A stretch of 20,000 nucleotides of DNA from an uncultured virus (IMG/VR IMGVR_UViG_3300046003_004339) (Duplodnaviria; Heunggongvirae; Uroviricota; Caudoviricetes). Positions within the stretch are counted from its first letter, which is position 1. Every line of letters begins with the position of its first letter. The stretch lies in IMG/VR virus record IMGVR_UViG_3300046003_004339; one strand, written 5' to 3'. Shown piece by piece: positions 580 to 18,050 of this stretch. The position numbers and the translations under genes were made by a program. The notes beneath the pieces are model-generated. The model searched no databases. It worked only from the letters and a program-made list of their open reading frames with translations, and had not been told where the DNA came from.

Positions 580-1881
580 TTAAACTAGACTCGCCTGTAT
601 AATTCTCTCCGGGTCTCCGCCACTCTGAGTGATTGTCCACACTTCGCCAGTTAACGCGCTGGTAATTATAGTGTCGCCCGGAGAAGCATCCATTGCACTA
701 AACTTCGCGTGTACTTCCTCAAGAACATTACTTATCCATGCCTCGTATATCCTTCCTGATAACAATTGTATGTTTCCGTCAACGTTTCTACCCAATGACA
801 CTATCTGCGTAGTTCCCGATATTGGTTGTGTAATTGTGGCTTGTTGTGTTCCAATTTGCGTCCAATTATTACCGTCTGTGCTTTGGTAGAAATTCACGGT
901 GCTTTGTGAACTTCCATTGTTTACATCAAACTGCATCCGTAACCAACCATCGGTATTGTTTGTTAAAGAGATTGCTGCGTTTGACGTTAAATATGGCCCC
1001 GCACCATTCCACCAAAAAGTAGTAACTCCGGATGGGTTGATTGTCCAATGCCATTCTCTGCCGGTCGTTCCCCATTTACTAATGAGTGTCTGGTATCCGC
1101 CATTGGCATAACTGGTGGCTCTCAATTTAATTCTTAAATCCAAATCCACAGCGCGAACTGCCGAACTGTCGGGAGTGGAGATTCCATTGGTAGAAGTACC
1201 CGGAACATATAAATAATTTACAAATGACGGAGTAGCCGTTGGTGTTGGCGTTGGTGTTGGCGTAGGAGTCTGCGTCGGTGTCTCGGTTACCGTTGGTGTT
1301 ACGGTTGTAGTAACGGAAGGCGTCACCGTAATTGTTGGCGTAGGAGTCTGCGTCGGTGTCTCGCTCACCGTTGGTGTTACAGCGATGGACGGAGTCGGTG
1401 TCTGCGTCGGTGTCTCGGTTACCGTTGGTGTTACGGTGGAAGTAATGGACGGGGTTATCGTAGTTGTCGGCGTCGGTGTCTCGCCTACGGTCGGAGTAGG
1501 CGTCTGTGTCGGGGATAACGTGGGAGTCGGAGTTTGGGTAGCAGTCGGAGTCAATGGAATTTTTTCTTCTACCGCCAATGGCTTGTTGCTCACATATTTC
1601 CAACCATTCATGCTCGACGCATATCCGACCTTTTTCCATAATTCTGTTGTATATTTAAATACGATATCGGAATCTCTCGCGGTCGCATACCATATTTCGC
1701 CGGAGTATGCGGCAACAAACTTTTTCTTGGGAACGTCTATTCTGCGCCTCGTTGCTCCCTCTATCAAGAAAAACACGTCATTTCCAACCCTGTAAAAATA
1801 AGTGCCACCGCTGGCGGCTATTACGTTTTCTGGATTGGATTGGTCTAACTCGATTTTTCGAGTGAGCGGCGAGAATTTCAT
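580..1881 (-). CDS. putative virion surface/adhesion protein: N-terminal domain, Pro/Thr-rich linker, C-terminal LamG/concanavalin A-like domain
   Basis: About 110-aa TPT-rich linker; C-terminal beta-rich domain with LamG-like elements ([27 protein letters not shown]...GRIYE). Confidence 0.7.
1225..1557 (-). repeat. Pro/Thr low-complexity coding repeat
   Basis: 35-nt unit gtctgcgtcggtgtctcgNNNaccgttggtgttac at 1268-1302, 1346-1380 and 1400-1434, encoding VTPTV(T/S)ETPTQT, plus degenerate TP repeats. Confidence 0.9.
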
Positions 1882-6790: not shown

Positions 6791-6802
6791 ACGATTTAAA
6801 TT

Positions 6803-7534
6803 TTATCTATATTTCGCATCAGGTCTATCCATATCAGGATTGTCGTCATGTTTGTTGCGATTTTTTGGAAGTGATGTTCTCGGTGGAGCATCGAACTCAT
6901 CATGTTCTCCGCCCGGATTGTCCACTCCTATAGAAGTGCTTGGCTTCGCGTCTCCTCTTGCCGGTGGCATAGGTAAAAGTTTACCTTTATCGTCGTATGG
7001 CCAACTGTTCTCATCAATTCCTATATCCAACACGGCGTCAATTTTTGCACAATAATGACTCAAATGGTCCGCTTGCTTCGGAGATTTGCTGCTTCCGCCA
7101 ATCTCGGGTGTATTTCCTATTGTTACACCATGTGGCAATCCACCATGTTCAGGAGCCGGTTCCAGTGGCTTGGTAGTTTTGTCGGCTATAGTATTACTTT
7201 GTTCGATGGAATCCAACCCCGAACTTTTCAATGGTGCAGTGTTTTTGCCTAGATTGGATGTCCTCAATGCCGTCGCCTGCTTTCCCGCCATTTGTGTTGG
7301 CGTAACTGGCTTTGGTAGCGATACGCTACCTTTCTGACCCGACTCGGCGCGGTCCATCGCCGCCATCTGGGTGACCTCTGGTTCGTCCACTAACCCAGCG
7401 GACACAAGTCTGCTATAATAAATGGCATCTCCTTTGAGATGGTCCATCGCAATTTTTTGTGCCAACGCTAGATCTCCCGTGTGTTCTTTTTCTACGTTGA
7501 TTCCGAGGTTTAATTCTTTTGGTGATATGTTCAT
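6803..7534 (-). CDS. DUF5661-type domain protein with disordered Pro/Gly-rich tail
   Basis: N-terminal ELNLGINVEKEHTGDLALAQKIAMDHLKGDAIYYSRL matches the G..VE.EH...A..IA.DHL....YY..L pattern recalled for DUF5661; ATGA overlap with upstream gene. Confidence 0.75.
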   Translation of the reverse strand: MNISPKELNLGINVEKEHTGDLALAQKIAMDHLKGDAIYYSRLVSAGLVDEPEVTQMAAMDRAESGQKGSVSLPKPVTPTQMAGKQATALRTSNLGKNTAPLKSSGLDSIEQSNTIADKTTKPLEPAPEHGGLPHGVTIGNTPEIGGSSKSPKQADHLSHYCAKIDAVLDIGIDENSWPYDDKGKLLPMPPARGDAKPSTSIGVDNPGGEHDEFDAPPRTSLPKNRNKHDDNPDMDRPDAKYR

Positions 7535-8847
7535 ATTTTATCGCTGTTGAAATACATGTCCAAATCACTATAGTATTTTGGATTTTTTAATAGGTTGGCC
7601 ACCACAATTGGTCTGGCGACGTCTTTGTCCGGAAATTCCATTTTCTGCATTTCTTGTCGGAAGCCCGCAAACATTTCATCGGTGGAAAATCTCTTATCCG
7701 TCAAATCGTCGTTGGTTATGGTATCGTAGAGCGAGCTTCCGATCACTGTATTTCCCTGCATATACGTGTATCTACGGCTTGCTGGATAGTCCTTCAATCT
7801 ACGGGAAGTTTGTGGACTCGAATTAGTTCCGGCCCATCCCATTGGAGCCATTGGACCACCGGCCATAGCCCCACCGCCGTATCCACCAGAAGTGCCGACG
7901 TTGTATTCACTCATATTATTTTTATTTGGTTCTCTGTGCATGTTCCCGCGTAAATCCGGTCTGTATGATCGCTTGTCATAGTTACTCTTGAATCCAAATC
8001 TTGAATAGAATTTTTTCAATCTGTCGGTGGATGTTGTTTTCTTGAAAACTTCTGGAGCATTGCGATCTCTCAATCCCGTCGTCAGAGTAATTATCATTCC
8101 ATAATCATCCGCAATGGAAATCAAGTCTTTCATGAATGCTGTTCCTGTTCCAACAGGTGCGGTTTTCAATGCACGAAGATTGCCCAAACTTATACCTTTA
8201 TCATCTACAGAAATCCAGCTTTCCAAATGCTCTCTGTACTTACTTGATAGCGCATCAAGTTCTTTTTTTACACTCGATTCCGATTTTTTAGAATCGTTAT
8301 ATTCACTCATATTCACATAATGATTTTCGTCGCGTTTTCCGTTGCTATATAGGAATGCTTCAAACAGTACTTTTGTACCTTCGAACGTTTTATCTCCCAC
8401 CAACTCGTTGCATGTCCCTTTATTGATATAAGCCAATGTCACGTGCGGATTGTAGTTTGGCCACTTGTAATCGTTTTTGCATGTGCGCTTCAAGCTTTCG
8501 TGTATCATCGTCAAATGTGGGCTCTTCACTTCAATCTTTAATACGTCATATGGTTGGTCCGCATTCTCGAATTTAGATACTATGCCTAATTCTGCCACCA
8601 ATTTGCGCGGTATTTTAGATAAAATATTTTTCGCCTTACTTTCTTCCAAGGAGTCTAATCCATACATTACCGTGACATGTGGATTCTTCTCTTTACCATA
8701 ATCTTCCCCGACAATTTCGTAGACATGCTGCTGCGGGATTTTGTTGATATACTCCATGAGTTTTCCATCTTTTGGTATATCAACCATGACACAGTGACCT
8801 TCGGCCAAAATGTCAGGGTAAAATTCGTAATAGTGAAAATTATCCAT
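7531..8847 (-). CDS. multidomain protein: 2H phosphoesterase (Acb1/T4 gp57B-like) + GNAT-like domain + DUF5661-like C-terminal domain
   Basis: Two HxT motifs (NPHVTVMYG, YNPHVTLAY); GNAT-like GTGTAFMKDLISIADDYGMIITL...RLKKFYSRFGF; C-terminal DEMFAGFRQE...DVARPIVVANLLKNPKYYSDL. Confidence 0.8.
   Translation of the reverse strand: MDNFHYYEFYPDILAEGHCVMVDIPKDGKLMEYINKIPQQHVYEIVGEDYGKEKNPHVTVMYGLDSLEESKAKNILSKIPRKLVAELGIVSKFENADQPYDVLKIEVKSPHLTMIHESLKRTCKNDYKWPNYNPHVTLAYINKGTCNELVGDKTFEGTKVLFEAFLYSNGKRDENHYVNMSEYNDSKKSESSVKKELDALSSKYREHLESWISVDDKGISLGNLRALKTAPVGTGTAFMKDLISIADDYGMIITLTTGLRDRNAPEVFKKTTSTDRLKKFYSRFGFKSNYDKRSYRPDLRGNMHREPNKNNMSEYNVGTSGGYGGGAMAGGPMAPMGWAGTNSSPQTSRRLKDYPASRRYTYMQGNTVIGSSLYDTITNDDLTDKRFSTDEMFAGFRQEMQKMEFPDKDVARPIVVANLLKNPKYYSDLDMYFNSDKI
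7899..8313. repeat. 19-nt direct repeat (18/19 identical) flanking the GNAT module
   Basis: cgttgtattcactcatatt (7899-7917) vs cgttatattcactcatatt (8295-8313); 396 nt apart, in frame; both encode NMSEYN. Confidence 0.9.
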
Positions 8848-9181
8848 GGAGTATTCCTTTTCGTGTTTCCGGAATATATTTTCCGGGTGTTAGATGTTTG
8901 CCTTCGGTTTTTCCTTTTAACATGTTCAACACAGTCCGTGGGTTCATGCCATTGAAATTTACTCCTATAATACCACGCTGTTTGCAGAACGCTTCAAGTT
9001 CCAGCATTTCTTCCTGACTGTACTGTGGAATATCAGGATACCAGTCGAATGGTTGTTCTTCCGAACCTTTATGAAATGTTCTACCTTTCAAAAGCGAATT
9101 TATATCAACCGAACTGACCGACTCAGGTTTTCTGTGAGGCGGTATCATGGAGGTGTTCATCATTGGCCAAGATTCATTCAT
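8840..9181 (-). CDS. hypothetical protein (113 aa), first gene of the putative late operon
   Basis: ATG downstream of TATATTTAT motif; 8-nt overlap with next gene. Confidence 0.8.
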   Translation of the reverse strand: MNESWPMMNTSMIPPHRKPESVSSVDINSLLKGRTFHKGSEEQPFDWYPDIPQYSQEEMLELEAFCKQRGIIGVNFNGMNPRTVLNMLKGKTEGKHLTPGKYIPETRKGILHG

Positions 9182-9195
9182 ATATATATTACTTA

Positions 9196-9205
9196 TATAA
9201 ATATA
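9196..9205. promoter_or_regulatory. TATATTTAT motif (-) overlapping TATAAATA (+) in a 31-nt divergent intergenic gap
   Basis: TATAAATATA at 9196-9205 between divergent starts at 9181 (-) and 9213 (+). Confidence 0.55.
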
Positions 9206-9212
9206 ACTTCAT

Positions 9213-16170: not shown

Positions 16171-16370
16171 CCTATTATTCCTTTCGCACATCCCATGTCA
16201 TATTCGGCTTTTGTTATTTCAGCAAATGATGTAATACACCATGTTTCTGGTTGTTGAACCGTATTTTCATACAACTCAACAACGCTGTTTCCTTCAAACA
16301 AGTCGGTACCACAGTTCCAAGTTGATGAACCTTTGGTTTTCCATATAAAACTATAAACGTAGTATTTCAT
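16167..16370 (-). CDS. hypothetical protein (67 aa)
   Basis: ATGA overlaps at both ends. Confidence 0.75.
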   Translation of the reverse strand: MKYYVYSFIWKTKGSSTWNCGTDLFEGNSVVELYENTVQQPETWCITSFAEITKAEYDMGCAKGIIG

Positions 16371-16555
16371 ATCTTAGTTATATCCTTTTTACCCACAATG
16401 TCAAGCAATTCACGCTCTTTGTCTGTCATTTCATGATATGCTGCATCAAGTTGTTCGCGTAAATCATCTGCTTCGGATGTATGACTCTTTTCATCATCCA
16501 GCATACGTTCCAGTTTGTAGTATAATTTGAAATATTTTTGGGCTGCTGGCGTCAT
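16367..16555 (-). CDS. hypothetical protein (62 aa), begins MTPAAQKY
   Basis: ATGA overlaps at both ends. Confidence 0.75.
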   Translation of the reverse strand: MTPAAQKYFKLYYKLERMLDDEKSHTSEADDLREQLDAAYHEMTDKERELLDIVGKKDITKI

Positions 16556-16848
16556 ACTTTTTCATTTACTATAGTCGCTTCAAATTCATTGACATGGCAC
16601 CATTCACCGTCCCATCGCTCCTCGCCAACAGCCCATCCATTGCCATTTTCGTTTGGATTATCCTCACACACCCGAACTCCTCTAACACATATACCCGTCT
16701 CCTTTGTTGCCGTTTGCCATTGTTCCAATGTGACGCGATACAAATCATTTGTCGGATTGCAATCATAATCATATACTTCGGTTCCTTCTTTGAACCAAGT
16801 ATCATGTTTAGCTATCAGTTTTACATACTTTTGGGCTGCTGGTGTCAT
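16552..16848 (-). CDS. hypothetical protein (98 aa), begins MTPAAQKY
   Basis: ATGA overlaps at both ends. Confidence 0.8.
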   Translation of the reverse strand: MTPAAQKYVKLIAKHDTWFKEGTEVYDYDCNPTNDLYRVTLEQWQTATKETGICVRGVRVCEDNPNENGNGWAVGEERWDGEWCHVNEFEATIVNEKV

Positions 16849-17279
16849 GGTTTCAATAATTCAGGATAATGATGTATATTACCGATTATCGTTTTAGTTT
16901 CTTTACTATCATCTTCCCAGTTGTTTCCTAGCCAACCATTGTTAAAAGACTCACTACCTATTTTTTGATAATACCAACCACGATGGTATTCTTGTTCGTT
17001 GTCTCTGTATCTTCCAAACACAACCACACTTTTTACATCTGGATATTTGTGTTGAACAATATCTCCATCGTAAATCTCTTTGTTATTTTTGTCCTTTAGA
17101 CCAGTAGAAAATTCTATAACAACATCTTCTTCTTTCAATAACAATACATTATGTTTTGCTGGCCCGCCAGCATCATCCAAATCAATCTTATAGCTGAATA
17201 CATGACCGGATTCTCCAACTACAATAGAGTTTATCCAATTATTATATGGTTTATACCAAGTTCTAAAGTTTGTTTTCAT
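16845..17279 (-). CDS. YopX-family protein
   Basis: NFRTW...FSTGLKDKNNKEIYDGDIV...IIGNIHHYPELL; start set to ATG 17279. Confidence 0.88.
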   Translation of the reverse strand: MKTNFRTWYKPYNNWINSIVVGESGHVFSYKIDLDDAGGPAKHNVLLLKEEDVVIEFSTGLKDKNNKEIYDGDIVQHKYPDVKSVVVFGRYRDNEQEYHRGWYYQKIGSESFNNGWLGNNWEDDSKETKTIIGNIHHYPELLKP

Positions 17280-17283
17280 AAAA

Positions 17284-17598
17284 TTAAGCAGTTGCAATCC
17301 ATAGCCCCCGACGATTTTTATCTTCGGCGATTAAACTTTCTTTCAACGCTTTTAAGCACATCTCTAATTTTTCGTTCGCGTTTTTAACAGCATCTTCTTT
17401 TCTTAGTACTGGATGACTATATTCTTCGGCACATATAAGGTCTTCCATTGATGCTTTGACATAAGAAAGTATTGTAGCAGAACTTGGTGTAAAATCGTGA
17501 TGATACCTCTTCCTAATCTTTTCTACATTTCCTTCTTTACATAACGCTGCATTTTCCGAACTGAGTTGTTCGGAGTATTTGTTTACTATAGGATTCAT
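17284..17598 (-). CDS. hypothetical protein (104 aa)
   Basis: ATGA overlap with upstream YopX gene. Confidence 0.75.
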   Translation of the reverse strand: MNPIVNKYSEQLSSENAALCKEGNVEKIRKRYHHDFTPSSATILSYVKASMEDLICAEEYSHPVLRKEDAVKNANEKLEMCLKALKESLIAEDKNRRGLWIATA

Positions 17599-18050
17599 AG
17601 TTCGTATTTTACAAGTTTAGGATTTTGGTGAATGTTTCCAACGACTTCGGCGTATTCTATAAAATATGAAGATATTGGCTCATATTCATCACCATAATAT
17701 TCTTTTTGTCCACTGAGTCCCGTCCACACTTCTCTGGGCATTTTGAGATAAAATCCACCATTTTTCCAAGTAACAACTAAACTTTTATAACTGTAGTCTC
17801 CCGAGCTGTCTCTTTCATGCCCTGCGGAATATTCTACATCCAAAATATCACCCTCCCACATTTCTGTTCCATTGCAATCCTTTAGACCAGTGTATTGAGT
17901 AATGACATATTTATTTCTCCAATCACCTCCATTGCCATCATTATACAGTGGGCGTAATATGCCATCATCACTGAATACTTCTACGATAGCAGGATTGTCC
18001 CACTCTTTATCAACATTGTTCCATATTCTAAATTTTAGTTCTCTGTTCAT
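17595..18050 (-). CDS. YopX-family protein
   Basis: MNRELKFRIW...QYTGLKDCNGTEMWEGDIL...EVVGNIHQNPKL. Confidence 0.92.
   Translation of the reverse strand: MNRELKFRIWNNVDKEWDNPAIVEVFSDDGILRPLYNDGNGGDWRNKYVITQYTGLKDCNGTEMWEGDILDVEYSAGHERDSSGDYSYKSLVVTWKNGGFYLKMPREVWTGLSGQKEYYGDEYEPISSYFIEYAEVVGNIHQNPKLVKYEL

What the first reader, a model, noticed from the sequence alone, without database searches (positions are those of the whole stretch)
7899..8313. GNAT module is an in-frame 396-bp cassette bounded by an NMSEYN direct repeat
Seen: a 19-nt repeat (one synonymous mismatch) at 8295-8313 and 7899-7917, exactly 132 codons apart, brackets the GNAT domain; removing the segment would leave a seamless 2H-linker-DUF5661-like ORF. 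Inference: an effector domain gained or lost by recombination at a conserved linker, i.e. plug-in domain shuffling.
Basis: partly seen in the sequence, partly recalled or inferred. Interest (0 to 1): 0.75.

Follow-up and report, generated by a model that had tools for sequence, protein, structure and literature searches.

The report
Swappable acetyltransferase cassette in phage protein
A lake-water phage gene for a likely immune-signal-degrading enzyme carries an extra acetyltransferase-like domain as a 132-codon plug-in between two copies of a short junction motif, and related phages lack it at the same spot, so this is a well-documented case of domain shuffling.

Summary
ORF 7531-8847 (-) encodes 438 aa. 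A 19-nt repeat (18 of 19 identical, 396 nt apart, in frame) encodes NMSEYN twice, at aa 179-184 and 311-316.

The bracketed segment is a mini-GNAT fold. Its best solved match is the anti-CRISPR acetyltransferase AcrVA5 (Z 9.5). The N-terminal domain is an Acb1-type 2H phosphoesterase. The C-terminal module is conserved and has no Pfam hit.

Of 119 listed homologues, 106 join 2H directly to the C module, and only 2 share 2H-GNAT-C. Each GNAT-bearing protein is exactly 132 aa longer than a GNAT-less counterpart (438/306, 439/307, 436/304). The modules have separate histories:
- P0002 has a 2H module 99% identical to a GNAT-less protein, and GNAT and C modules 100% identical to the window.
- In lake metagenome contigs this genotype forks from the window's at 8304/8305, inside repeat copy 1.
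- A syntenic 297-kb relative carries the GNAT-less form.

The motif is also the near-universal boundary [M/L/I]-x-E|Y of the C module, seen in 126 of 129 proteins. It resembles T4 gp21 cleavage sites, so the junctions may be prohead-protease processing sites. That is inference, at about 0.3. The precise deletion of this allele was not found.

The parts
7531..8847 (-). Whole gene, 438 aa (P0001): leader, 2H phosphoesterase, mini-GNAT, conserved C module. The stop is TGA at 7531-7533.
8800..8847 (-). N-terminal 16-aa leader MDNFHYYEFYPDILAE ending L-A-E before G-H-C. It is predicted disordered.
   Evidence: pLDDT is below 50 for residues 1-15 and the first strand is at 18-23. 80 of 84 2H modules have [LIMV]-x-E directly before GHC.
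8314..8799 (-). 2H phosphoesterase domain (aa 17-178), Acb1-type. The two H-x-T motifs are at aa 57-60 (8668-8679) and aa 135-138 (8434-8445).
   Evidence: Pfam Acb1 31.5 bits (cut-off 27) and 2_5_RNA_ligase2 28.2 bits (cut-off 27). The only PDB sequence hit is Acb1 7t26, E 0.0077. Foldseek gives 37 matches at E<=0.001, all listed ones 2H enzymes. The motifs were read.
8295..8313 (-). Repeat copy 1, N179-M-S-E-Y-N184 plus 1 nt: the junction between 2H and GNAT. The genotype fork lies at 8304/8305.
7918..8294 (-). Mini-GNAT module (aa 185-310), with G-x-G at aa 233-235 within APVGTGTAF, and RLKKFYSRFGF.
   Evidence: AF2 pLDDT is 86.7. VIA-align gives AcrVA5 6iuf_B at Z 9.5, rmsd 2.9, 93 aligned, and almost all of the other 49 rows are acetyltransferases at Z 6.2-7.9. 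Stand-alone homologues are 128-148 aa.
7899..7917 (-). Repeat copy 2, N311-M-S-E-Y-N316 plus 1 nt: the junction between GNAT and the C module.
   Evidence: It lies in a segment with pLDDT below 50.
7732..7898 (-). Conserved Gly/Ala/Tyr-rich first half of the C module (aa 317-372, VGTSGGYGGGAMAGG...YMQGNT). It is predicted disordered despite many invariant residues.
7534..7731 (-). Helical second half of the C module (aa 373-438). A genotype breakpoint lies near aa 369-379.
   Evidence: Helices are at 389-402, 408-421 and 428-433. P0061 is identical to P0001 up to aa 378 and then diverges. Assembly forks occur near 7742.
6803..7534 (-). Next ORF, 243 aa, beginning with a true DUF5661 domain. 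Its ATG overlaps the target's TGA as ATGA. In relatives the same module is fused in frame behind the C module.
   Evidence: Pfam PF18905 29.5 bits (cut-off 27). hhalign probability is 99%, E 9e-18, to the extension carried by P0119, P0120, P0125 and P0133.
8840..9181 (-). Upstream 113-aa ORF overlapping the target start by 8 nt. It is conserved in synteny in relatives.

Best explanation
The gene encodes a small modular, polyvalent-type phage protein. It consists of an intact Acb1-type 2H phosphoesterase (probably degrading cyclic or 2'-5' nucleotide immune signals), an AcrVA5-like mini-GNAT (probably acetylating a host protein), and a constant C module of unknown role.

The GNAT is a gene-sized 132-codon cassette. 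It sits exactly at the conserved [M/L/I]-x-E|Y boundary that normally joins 2H to the C module, so that boundary motif appears twice. The modules are exchanged between co-circulating phage genotypes by recombination at or within a few codons of this motif. The result is a presence/absence polymorphism.

Shown: the repeat, the fold assignments, the presence/absence pattern, the mosaicism and the DNA breakpoint.
Inferred: the biochemical activities, the anti-defence role, and that the short shared motif itself serves as the crossover substrate.
Unresolved: whether the GNAT was gained once and then spread, or was lost repeatedly.
For: - Repeat and frame.
- Architecture tally among the 119 listed homologues: 106 are 2H+C without GNAT, 2 are 2H+GNAT+C, 3 are GNAT+C without 2H, 7 are C only, and 1 is 2H only.
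- Exact 132-aa length differences and identical junction placement.
- Module identities, computed on 85 proteins: P0002 N is 99% identical to P0023. P0003 N is 96% identical to P0040 and its C 98% to P0077. P0001 and P0002 have C and GNAT at 100% but N at about 64%.
- Contigs: a 4,426-nt contig of run X20 matches 6800-8326 with 8 differences, then continues unlike. The same loose end in X16, X18 and X20 translates to the P0002-type 2H tail. Contigs break at 8304.
- Synteny: 20 of 34 window ORFs have collinear homologues in the complete 297-kb record G002, which has the 307-aa GNAT-less gene at the same slot.
- Stand-alone GNAT homologues of 128-148 aa end within a few residues of GNMHR.P.
- The same GNAT family (48% identity) lies in 3,055-aa and 3,146-aa proteins with ART-PolyVal domains. 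This matches the GNAT-next-to-ART family described for polyvalent proteins (PMC5512222, passages read).
- GNAT fold.
- 2H.
- A natural deletion variant, P0106, is 386 of 387 identical to GNAT-bearing P0061 from NMSEYN onward. It lacks the GNAT and the 2H catalytic core, and its right deletion end lies at junction 2.
Against: - No contig joins across the 396-bp segment in the 4 runs laid (table 5: none). No GNAT-less protein carries this window's own 2H allele; the best is 68%. So the precise deletion of this allele is unobserved.
- Nucleotide identity of the two copies is not beyond what the shared peptide predicts (P about 0.15). A recent duplication or recombination scar is therefore not demonstrated.
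- Three of ten stand-alone GNATs natively carry x-E-Y before the first helix. Copy 1 may be native to the GNAT module and not a duplicated junction.
- Pfam GNAT models do not hit this protein, and a profile search of PDB sequences gave only one weak hit, E 0.23.
- Enzyme activities and targets are untested.
- Only protein sequences, not DNA, of P0002 and P0003 were available, apart from short contig ends.
Confidence: 0.78

Rival explanations
1. The junction is a processing site. This reading is not exclusive of the best explanation. The repeated N-M-S-E|Y-N is a duplicated T4 gp21-type prohead-protease cleavage site (L/I-x-E|, here M/L/I-x-E|), and the N-terminal 16 residues act as a capsid-targeting leader. 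The protein would be packed into the head as a polyprotein, cut into 2H, GNAT and C, and injected with the DNA. Fused and split gene forms would then give the same mature modules, which would explain why modules can be swapped freely at this boundary.
For: - 126 of 129 C-module proteins have M, L or I two residues before the conserved Glu, in 46 different 5-residue contexts. The background P(M/L/I at that position given E) is 0.19.
- Upstream contexts include 2H, GNAT, a small unrelated domain, and the short leaders MAKSIAE| and MKKSQLKQLIKEVIKE|.
- 80 of 84 2H modules have [LIMV]-x-E just before the first strand.
- 14 of 16 GNAT-first proteins have [LIVM]-x-E ending at residues 8-20. This compares with 0.16 for other windows of the same proteins and 3 of 33 for other window ORFs.
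- 6 of 8 multidomain proteins with sequence after the GNAT have such a motif soon after it.
- Both junctions and the leader are predicted disordered.
- The two most complete related records (G002, 100% complete; G003, 78%) encode Peptidase_S77, the gp21 family, at 88.7 and 89 bits.
- G002 has 6 ORFs sharing an MKKSELKxLIKEV..E leader before unrelated sequences, three of them next to the 2H-C gene.
- The gp21 motif L/I-X-E and 10-residue capsid-targeting sequences on diverse anti-defence internal proteins are in print (PMC9026906 passages; PMC3012670 passages; PMC5694885 passages).
Against: - There is no proteomic or biochemical evidence.
- Met, the commonest residue at that position here (91 of 129), is not in the published L/I-X-E consensus.
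- [LIVM]-x-E is a common tripeptide in helical, Glu-rich leaders.
- The sequences counted are homologues, so the counts are not independent.
- A stricter positional test gave only 7 of 16, against a background of 0.17.
- The window's own genome is not held, so its protease is not seen.
- Three of 5 related records show no Peptidase_S77; they are 21-64% complete.
- The motif could simply be the first residues of the C-module fold.
Confidence: 0.3
2. The repeat marks relic or still-used internal start codons. The modules were once separate genes, each starting M-(S/K)-E-Y, and were fused by loss of stops. The repeated AAT ATG AGT GAA TAY AAC would then be two internal initiation regions giving nested products: full length, GNAT-C and C.
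For: - Met is the residue at that position in 91 of 129 proteins although Met is rare overall.
- Other boundaries at this locus are alternately fused or split at an ATG. The downstream DUF5661 ORF starts by ATGA overlap here and is fused as ..IME|NI.. in relatives. The 2H start is ..ENNMDKI.. when an upstream module is fused.
- The GNAT cassette has the size of a stand-alone gene.
Against: - Stand-alone C proteins do not start at that Met. They carry 7-17-aa leaders ending I-x-E.
- When the residue is not Met it is Leu or Ile in 35 of 38 cases, not a random residue.
- No Shine-Dalgarno-like sequence is visible by eye before either internal ATG (printout).
Confidence: 0.12
3. The repeat is a scar and nothing more. 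A single illegitimate insertion of a GNAT gene duplicated 4-6 codons of the target, like a target-site duplication. The motif would then have no function beyond being the start of the C module.
For: - The second copy is the universal start of the C module. In P0002 and P0003 the first copy (PMKEYN) matches the junction of their GNAT-less 2H relatives.
- The two copies in the window are 18 of 19 identical.
Against: - Distant independent 2H-GNAT fusions and some stand-alone GNATs have their own hydrophobic-x-E before the GNAT helix. Examples are P0155 (ELKE|AAGHIDSK), P0139 and P0158.
- The GNAT is 83% identical between P0001 and P0003, so the arrangement is old. Yet both motifs are kept.
Confidence: 0.15
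4. Assembly chimera: the GNAT segment was joined into the gene by metagenome mis-assembly at the short repeat.
For: Short-read contigs do break near both repeats, at 8304 and at 7925-7944.
Against: - 20 runs of 20 studies hold at least 0.61 of the stretch's words, though 10 may be the source.
- Single contigs run through junction 2 and the whole GNAT: X20 record 20 covers 6800-8326 and X16 record 2 covers 7762-8304.
- Three separate protein clusters (P0001; P0002 with 13 members; P0003 at 66% identity from another source) show the same architecture.
Confidence: 0.02

Closest known systems
Polyvalent proteins of phages and conjugative elements (Iyer et al. 2017, PMC5512222; passages and section 20 read)
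   Same: Several counter-defence catalytic domains sit in one polypeptide. 2H phosphoesterase and a RimI-like GNAT are both listed as polyvalent-protein domains with solo versions in phages. The window's GNAT is 48% identical to a domain in 3,055-aa and 3,146-aa proteins that carry ART-PolyVal.
   Different: This protein has only 438 aa and two catalytic domains, and no peptidase, MuF or portal domain. It has a constant C module that was not matched to any described family here. The cassette-like indel and the repeated junction motif were not among the passages I read.
Acb1, anti-CBASS 2H phosphodiesterase (Pfam PF23474; PDB 7t26/7t27; PMC9117128 seen as search listing and abstract)
   Same: The protein passes the Pfam Acb1 cut-off (31.5 against 27 bits). 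Both H-x-T motifs are present. Acb1 is the only PDB sequence hit, and the fold is 2H.
   Different: Acb1 is a single-domain protein of about 140-150 aa. Here it carries a 16-aa leader and two further modules. By fold it is no closer to Acb1 (E 7.6e-4) than to Usb1, LigT or CPDase (E 2e-5). The substrate is unknown.
AcrVA5, GNAT-fold anti-CRISPR that acetylates Cas12a (PDB 6iuf; abstracts in the listing)
   Same: It is the best structural match: Z 9.5, rmsd 2.9 A, 93 of 95 residues aligned. Both are minimal GNATs of phage or mobile-element origin.
   Different: Sequence identity is 15%, and no sequence-level link was found. The target is unknown. Nothing ties this module to Cas12a.
T4 internal proteins: capsid-targeting sequence plus gp21 cleavage at L/I-X-E (PMC9026906, PMC3012670, PMC5694885; passages read)
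   Same: Short N-terminal leaders end in hydrophobic-x-E. The cargo proteins behind a conserved leader are diverse and linked to anti-defence. Related phages encode the gp21-family protease.
   Different: Here the motif also lies between domains of one polypeptide, and Met dominates at the hydrophobic position. Packaging and cleavage are untested.
Viral 2H phosphodiesterases with extra domains (bioRxiv 10.1101/2025.08.21.671373; one passage read)
   Same: The preprint states that 13 of 75 detected viral 2H PDEs lie in proteins with additional putative domains, including acetyltransferases.
   Different: The passage gives no architecture or junction detail. Its Supplementary Table 2 could not be opened, because bioRxiv supplements are closed. 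I therefore cannot tell whether this family is among them.

Membership tests
Acb1 / 2H phosphoesterase (PF23474, PF13563) | Profile match above the curated cut-off | tested here: met
   Acb1 scores 31.5 bits (cut-off 27) and 2_5_RNA_ligase2 scores 28.2 bits (cut-off 27).
Acb1 / 2H phosphoesterase (PF23474, PF13563) | Two H-x-T/S-x catalytic motifs. The definition is recalled from general knowledge of the 2H superfamily. | tested here: met
   H57-V-T-V and H135-V-T-L were read from the translation. They are conserved in alignment A1.
Acb1 / 2H phosphoesterase (PF23474, PF13563) | 2H fold | tested here: met
   Foldseek on the whole model gives 37 matches at E<=0.001. The listed ones are Usb1, CPDase, LigT, cGAMP PDE and Acb1. 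pLDDT is 80-93 over the domain.
Acb1 / 2H phosphoesterase (PF23474, PF13563) | Cleaves CBASS cyclic oligonucleotide signals | not testable with these tools
   This needs an enzyme assay.
GNAT acetyltransferase superfamily | Pfam GNAT profile match | tested here: not met
   No GNAT family matches P0001 at E<=1, nor 17 close homologues of the module at E<=0.01. The distant homologue P0155 does pass: Acetyltransf_7 at 46 bits (cut-off 27) and Acetyltransf_1 at 35.8 bits (cut-off 20.7).
GNAT acetyltransferase superfamily | GNAT fold | tested here: met
   The model has pLDDT 86.7. AcrVA5 matches at Z 9.5 and almost all of the other 49 rows are acetyltransferases at Z 6.2-7.9. The Foldseek top rows are all GNATs, but at E 0.014 or weaker.
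GNAT acetyltransferase superfamily | Acetyl-CoA pyrophosphate-binding loop x-x-G-x-G/A after strand 4. The motif is recalled. | tested here: inconclusive
   V-G-T-G-T is present, and both Gly are invariant in 11 sequences (G55 and G57 of A2). The usual Q/R is absent, and no cofactor docking was done.
Polyvalent proteins (Iyer et al. 2017) | Two or more conflict-related domains in one polypeptide of a phage or mobile element | tested here: met
   2H plus GNAT lie in one ORF of a phage-like region containing helicase, HNH and dUTPase genes, and 20 of 34 ORFs are shared with a 297-kb virus record.
Polyvalent proteins (Iyer et al. 2017) | Domains shared with bona fide large polyvalent proteins | tested here: met
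   GNAT homologues lie in P0138 and P0151, which carry ART-PolyVal. 2H homologues lie in many 2,000-5,600-aa proteins.
Polyvalent proteins (Iyer et al. 2017) | Delivery with the DNA (packaged in the capsid) | not testable with these tools
   Only indirect hints are available: leader-like N-termini and a gp21-family protease in relatives.
DUF5661 (PF18905) | Profile match in the C-terminus of this protein | tested here: not met
   There is no hit at E<=1, and no BLASTP similarity between aa 373-438 and the neighbouring DUF5661 ORF. The neighbour itself passes at 29.5 bits (cut-off 27).
T4-type capsid-targeted, gp21-processed internal proteins | L/I-X-E cleavage motif at the leader or module boundary | tested here: inconclusive
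   Hydrophobic-x-E occurs at all three boundaries: LAE|G, MSE|Y and MSE|Y. Two of the three have Met, which is not in the published consensus.
T4-type capsid-targeted, gp21-processed internal proteins | Phage encodes a gp21-family protease | tested here: inconclusive
   Peptidase_S77 is present in 2 of 5 related records, the two most complete. The window's own genome is not held.
T4-type capsid-targeted, gp21-processed internal proteins | Cleaved and present in virions | not testable with these tools
   This needs virion proteomics.

The most novel reading that the evidence does not exclude
The locus is a plug-and-play polyprotein of capsid-delivered counter-defence effectors. Every module (2H, GNAT, C, and in relatives DUF5661) is preceded by a [M/L/I]-x-E| site for the phage's gp21-type prohead protease. 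Genes can then be fused, split or have cassettes inserted at these sites without changing the mature products. An Acb1-like nuclease and an AcrVA5-like acetyltransferase would be injected ready-made with the DNA. The same short site would be both the processing signal and the microhomology that drives module shuffling.
Probability: 0.25. Interest if true: 0.8.

Novelty: new variant of a known kind. Interest (0 to 1): 0.55.

Why it matters
Domain shuffling in phage counter-defence proteins is usually inferred from architectures alone. Here the same locus shows more direct evidence. There is an exact 132-codon presence/absence polymorphism, near-identical modules in different combinations, and a DNA breakpoint inside the junction motif between genotypes that co-occur in the same lakes. 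This makes it a tractable natural system for asking how phages rewire anti-defence proteins.

The locus also pairs an Acb1-type nuclease with an AcrVA5-like mini-GNAT, which points to two countermeasures in one product. If the junction motif is a prohead-protease site, it would link effector modularity to capsid delivery. It would also bear on the recent report that prohead proteases activate CBASS (PMC12991175, abstract read).

Tried and rejected
- Reads or contigs across the precise 396-bp deletion: none in the contigs of X16, X18, X19 and X20 (table 5). All 24 runs listed are kept as contigs, which drop rare variants, so this says nothing about absence.
- Close relatives in viral contigs and metagenome contigs using the single protein: none confirmed. 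The alignment query gave 19 viral loci, none with 2H-GNAT-C.
- The phage GenBank collection gave only 2H-domain hits at identity below 60% by tblastn, and no megablast match.
- The window's own assembly is not held. The nearest record, G001 (34.6 kb), has no match.
- A profile of the GNAT module against PDB sequences gave one weak hit, an integron cassette protein at E 0.23.
- The ESM Atlas search on the C module gave only unnamed viral clusters at 0.76-0.81, below the level of a lead.
- Including stand-alone GNATs in the whole-protein alignment misaligned them (A3), so they were dropped for A4. The GNAT region of the whole-protein model therefore rests on 3 sequences and is poor at aa 257-264 and 288-310.
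- The positional test of leader motifs by offset from HMMER coordinates was crude: 7 of 16. I replaced it with a fixed window of residues 8-20.
- Literature: 'Acb1' with 'GNAT' gave 13 papers, and the 8 listed are unrelated. 'DUF5661' gave 0 papers.
- Earlier findings of this scan: nothing.
Full report
**1. What is there**

The window is a phage-like region. It holds a helicase, HNH endonucleases, a dUTPase and many small ORFs on the minus strand. The finding lies in ORF 7531-8847 (-), 438 aa (P0001).

The repeat finder reports the 19-nt direct repeat at 7899-7917 and 8295-8313, 18 of 19 identical and 396 nt apart. A mismatch-tolerant search finds only these two sites in the window. None of 200 shuffles gave a match. 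On the coding strand both copies read N-M-S-E-Y-N, at aa 179-184 and 311-316.

With this window's codon usage, two copies of the same hexapeptide would share at least 4 of 5 degenerate codons about 15% of the time. What is unusual is the repeated peptide, not the extra DNA identity. Among 19 ORFs of the window, the only other exact 6-residue internal repeats are in 2 low-complexity proteins.

**2. The modules**

N-terminal domain, aa 17-178:
- It passes the Pfam cut-offs of Acb1 (31.5 bits against 27) and 2_5_RNA_ligase2 (28.2 bits against 27).
- It keeps both H-x-T motifs, at H57 and H135.
- Its only PDB sequence hit is Acb1 (7t26, E 0.0077).
- It folds as a 2H phosphoesterase, with 37 Foldseek matches at E<=0.001.

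Bracketed segment, aa 185-310:
- It has no Pfam hit.
- With an 11-sequence alignment it gives a confident model, pLDDT 86.7.
- The model's best match among 48,161 chains is the anti-CRISPR acetyltransferase AcrVA5 (Z 9.5, rmsd 2.9 A, 93 residues). Almost all of the other 49 listed rows are acetyltransferases at Z 6.2-7.9.
- The Foldseek top rows are also GNATs, but at E 0.014 or weaker.
- A distant homologue that matches both the 2H and this segment (P0155, E 8e-23) does pass Pfam GNAT models (Acetyltransf_7, 46 bits).

I therefore accept 'mini-GNAT' by fold and by a transitive sequence link.

C-terminal module, aa 317-438:
- It is very conserved, with 22 invariant columns in 30 sequences.
- It has no Pfam hit, DUF5661 included.
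- In the whole-protein model its Gly-rich first half is disordered and only aa 373-438 is helical.

A true DUF5661 starts the next ORF, 6803-7534 (29.5 bits against 27). Its ATG overlaps the target's stop. In relatives that same module is fused in frame behind the C module.

**3. Is the GNAT a cassette?**

The search for homologous proteins gave 166 hits, of which 120 were listed. I split the query into 2H, GNAT and C and ran each against the 119 other listed proteins:

| Architecture | Count of 119 | Notes |
|---|---|---|
| 2H and C, no GNAT | 106 | One of them, P0106, has a truncated 2H |
| 2H-GNAT-C | 2 | P0002, P0003 |
| GNAT and C, no 2H | 3 | P0061 (a fragment), P0109, P0110 |
| C only | 7 | |
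| 2H only | 1 | |

In the GNAT-less proteins the 2H tail runs straight into ..V-x-M-K-E-Y-x-V-G-x-S-G-G-Y-G-G-G. So M-x-E-Y is the normal single-copy junction.

The three GNAT-bearing proteins have this motif on both sides of the insert. Each is exactly 132 residues longer than a GNAT-less counterpart: 438 against 306 (P0004), 439 against 307 (P0023), and 436 against 304 (P0077).

Stand-alone homologues of the GNAT are 128-148 aa and stop within a few residues of the conserved G-N-M-H-R-x-P. The insert is therefore gene-sized.

**4. Recombination at the junction**

Module-wise identities were computed on 85 proteins:
- P0002's 2H is 99% identical to GNAT-less P0023. Its GNAT and C are 100% identical to the window, whose own 2H is only about 64% identical to P0002's.
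- P0003's 2H is 96% identical to GNAT-less P0040. Its C is 98% identical to GNAT-less P0077. Its GNAT is 83% identical to the window's.
- P0061 is identical to the window from L221 to T378 and then diverges, with 25 mismatches in the last 60 residues.

The three modules therefore have different histories.

At the DNA level, 20 lake or freshwater metagenome runs hold the stretch, 10 of them flagged as possible sources. I laid the contigs of four runs:
- A 4,426-nt contig of X20 matches 6800-8326 with 8 differences and then runs on unlike.
- The same loose end occurs in X16, X18 and X20. It translates to the FMYSNGIREL tail of the P0002-type 2H.
- Short contigs covering 8275-8326 carry 7 differences. 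This fits the S181K, N179P and Y177A replacements of P0002, which is my inference from the protein.
- Window-type contigs end at 8304.

The two genotypes thus part between 8304 and 8305-8307, inside repeat copy 1. A second fork lies near 7742, in the C module.

No contig joins across the 396-bp segment. The precise deletion of this allele is unobserved, and contigs cannot exclude it.

**5. Synteny**

Twenty of 34 window ORFs have collinear homologues in G002, a 297-kb virus record rated 100% complete. At the same slot G002 has the 307-aa GNAT-less gene, between the same upstream small ORF and a DUF5661 ORF. In another record the slot holds a 519-aa protein: a distant GNAT, a small domain, the C module, and DUF5661 with its tail.

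Among 15 viral loci with the C module, the sequence before E|Y is one of the following:
- 2H, in 3 loci;
- GNAT plus a small domain, in 2 loci;
- the small domain alone, in 4 loci;
- MAKSIAE or MDKSIAE, in 4 loci;
- MKKSQLKQLIKEVIKE, in 1 locus;
- an open frame without a clear start, in 1 locus.

One distant protein, P0122, has a different ~165-aa insert with no Pfam hit between 2H and C. P0106 is a natural deletion form. It is 386 of 387 identical to GNAT-bearing P0061 from NMSEYN onward, but its 2H stops after about 50 residues and joins ..GEN|NMSEYN.. directly.

**6. What the motif may be**

The Glu before the Gly-rich region has M, L or I two residues upstream in 126 of 129 proteins (M 91, L 24, I 11). 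Tyr follows the Glu in 121 of 129. This holds in 46 different local contexts, against a background of 0.19 for M/L/I at that position given a Glu.

Other observations point the same way:
- The 2H module is preceded by [LIMV]-x-E in 80 of 84 cases, after leaders of 8-17 residues.
- 14 of 16 GNAT-first proteins have such a motif ending at residues 8-20. This compares with 0.16 elsewhere in the same proteins and 3 of 33 in other window ORFs. A cruder positional test gave 7 of 16.
- 6 of 8 multidomain proteins have one soon after the GNAT.
- The leader and both junctions are predicted disordered.

This matches the published gp21 motif L/I-X-E and the short capsid-targeting leaders of T4 internal proteins, which are diverse anti-defence proteins (passages in PMC9026906, PMC3012670 and PMC5694885).

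The two most complete related records encode the gp21 family, Peptidase_S77. G002 also has 6 ORFs with a shared MKKSELKxLIKEV..E leader before unrelated sequences, three of them beside the 2H-C gene.

I rate the processing-site reading at about 0.3. The reasons for caution are:
- Met is not in the published consensus.
- The tripeptide is common.
- The counts are on homologues and are not independent.
- The window's own protease is unseen.
- Nothing was measured.

A rival for the prevalence of Met is a relic or active internal start codon.

**7. Function**

By family knowledge, the 2H domain most likely degrades nucleotide immune signals. Iyer et al. proposed this for polyvalent-protein 2H domains (section 20 of PMC5512222), and Acb1 does so for CBASS signals (PMC9117128, abstract in the listing).

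The GNAT belongs to the family found next to ART domains in giant polyvalent proteins (PMC5512222 passage). It most likely acetylates a host protein, as AcrVA5 does with Cas12a (abstracts in the listing).

The C module is the constant part behind variable effectors. Its role is unknown. A virion-incorporation role is my guess.

**8. Novelty**

Domain shuffling and multi-effector phage proteins are known. A 2025 preprint notes that 13 of 75 viral 2H phosphodiesterases carry extra domains, including acetyltransferases (one passage; its supplement could not be read).

What is new here is the documented cassette behaviour at a defined, duplicated junction motif, with population-level breakpoints, and the possible link to protease processing. 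In the held library, a search for 'DUF5661' found no paper. None of the 8 listed of the 13 papers holding both 'Acb1' and 'GNAT' is relevant.

Noticed in passing
window 6803-7534 (-) and 7531-7537: The downstream 243-aa ORF begins with DUF5661 and starts by an ATGA overlap with the target's stop. In relatives (P0014, P0061, P0109, P0119, P0120, P0125, P0133) the same module is fused in frame behind the C module. The gene boundary is therefore itself polymorphic.
   Followed up: yes
G002 (loci L022-L036) at about 139.6-140.4 kb, 95.7 kb, 248.4 kb and 50.9 kb; L001 2069-2658: Six open frames share an N-terminal MKKSELKxLIKEV..E leader followed by unrelated sequences. Three lie directly upstream of the 2H-C gene. 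A stand-alone C-module protein (P0124, L010) carries the same leader. It looks like a shared targeting or propeptide signal.
   Followed up: partly
P0106 (protein only, no locus): This is a natural deletion variant. A leucine-rich-repeat-like N-terminal part and the first ~50 residues of 2H are joined directly to NMSEYNVGTSGG. Both H-x-T motifs and the GNAT are lost. From NMSEYN onward it is 386 of 387 identical to GNAT-bearing P0061.
   Followed up: yes
L001 3927-4703 (+): In the 297-kb relative a 258-aa Cys-rich ORF sits between the 2H-C gene and the DUF5661 gene. The window has nothing there. It may be a homing-endonuclease-type insertion, but it was not searched.
   Followed up: no
L004 5989-6390 (-): A second, stand-alone 133-aa mini-GNAT of the same family lies about 1.5 kb downstream of the GNAT-C-DUF5661 gene in that record.
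   Followed up: no
P0155 (592 aa) and P0131 (273 aa): In P0155 the mini-GNAT occurs twice, before and after a 2H domain. In P0131 it occurs as a tandem pair. The 2H-GNAT pairing therefore recurs in distant proteins.
   Followed up: partly
window 16367-16555 (-) and 16552-16848 (-); 16845-17297 (-) and 17595-18050 (-): There are two pairs of neighbouring paralogues. Two small ORFs both begin MTPAAQKY. Two ORFs of about 150 aa both match phrog_98.
   Followed up: no
window 9191: A one-base length difference occurs in the intergenic A/T run upstream of the locus. One base is left out in an X20 contig and an extra T is present in an X18 contig. Several contigs switch to unlike sequence at 9152-9206, so the region upstream of the 113-aa ORF is variable between genotypes.
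   Followed up: no
window 580-1881 (-): This 433-aa ORF contains a Thr/Pro/Gln-rich low-complexity repeat ([12 protein letters not shown]).
   Followed up: no
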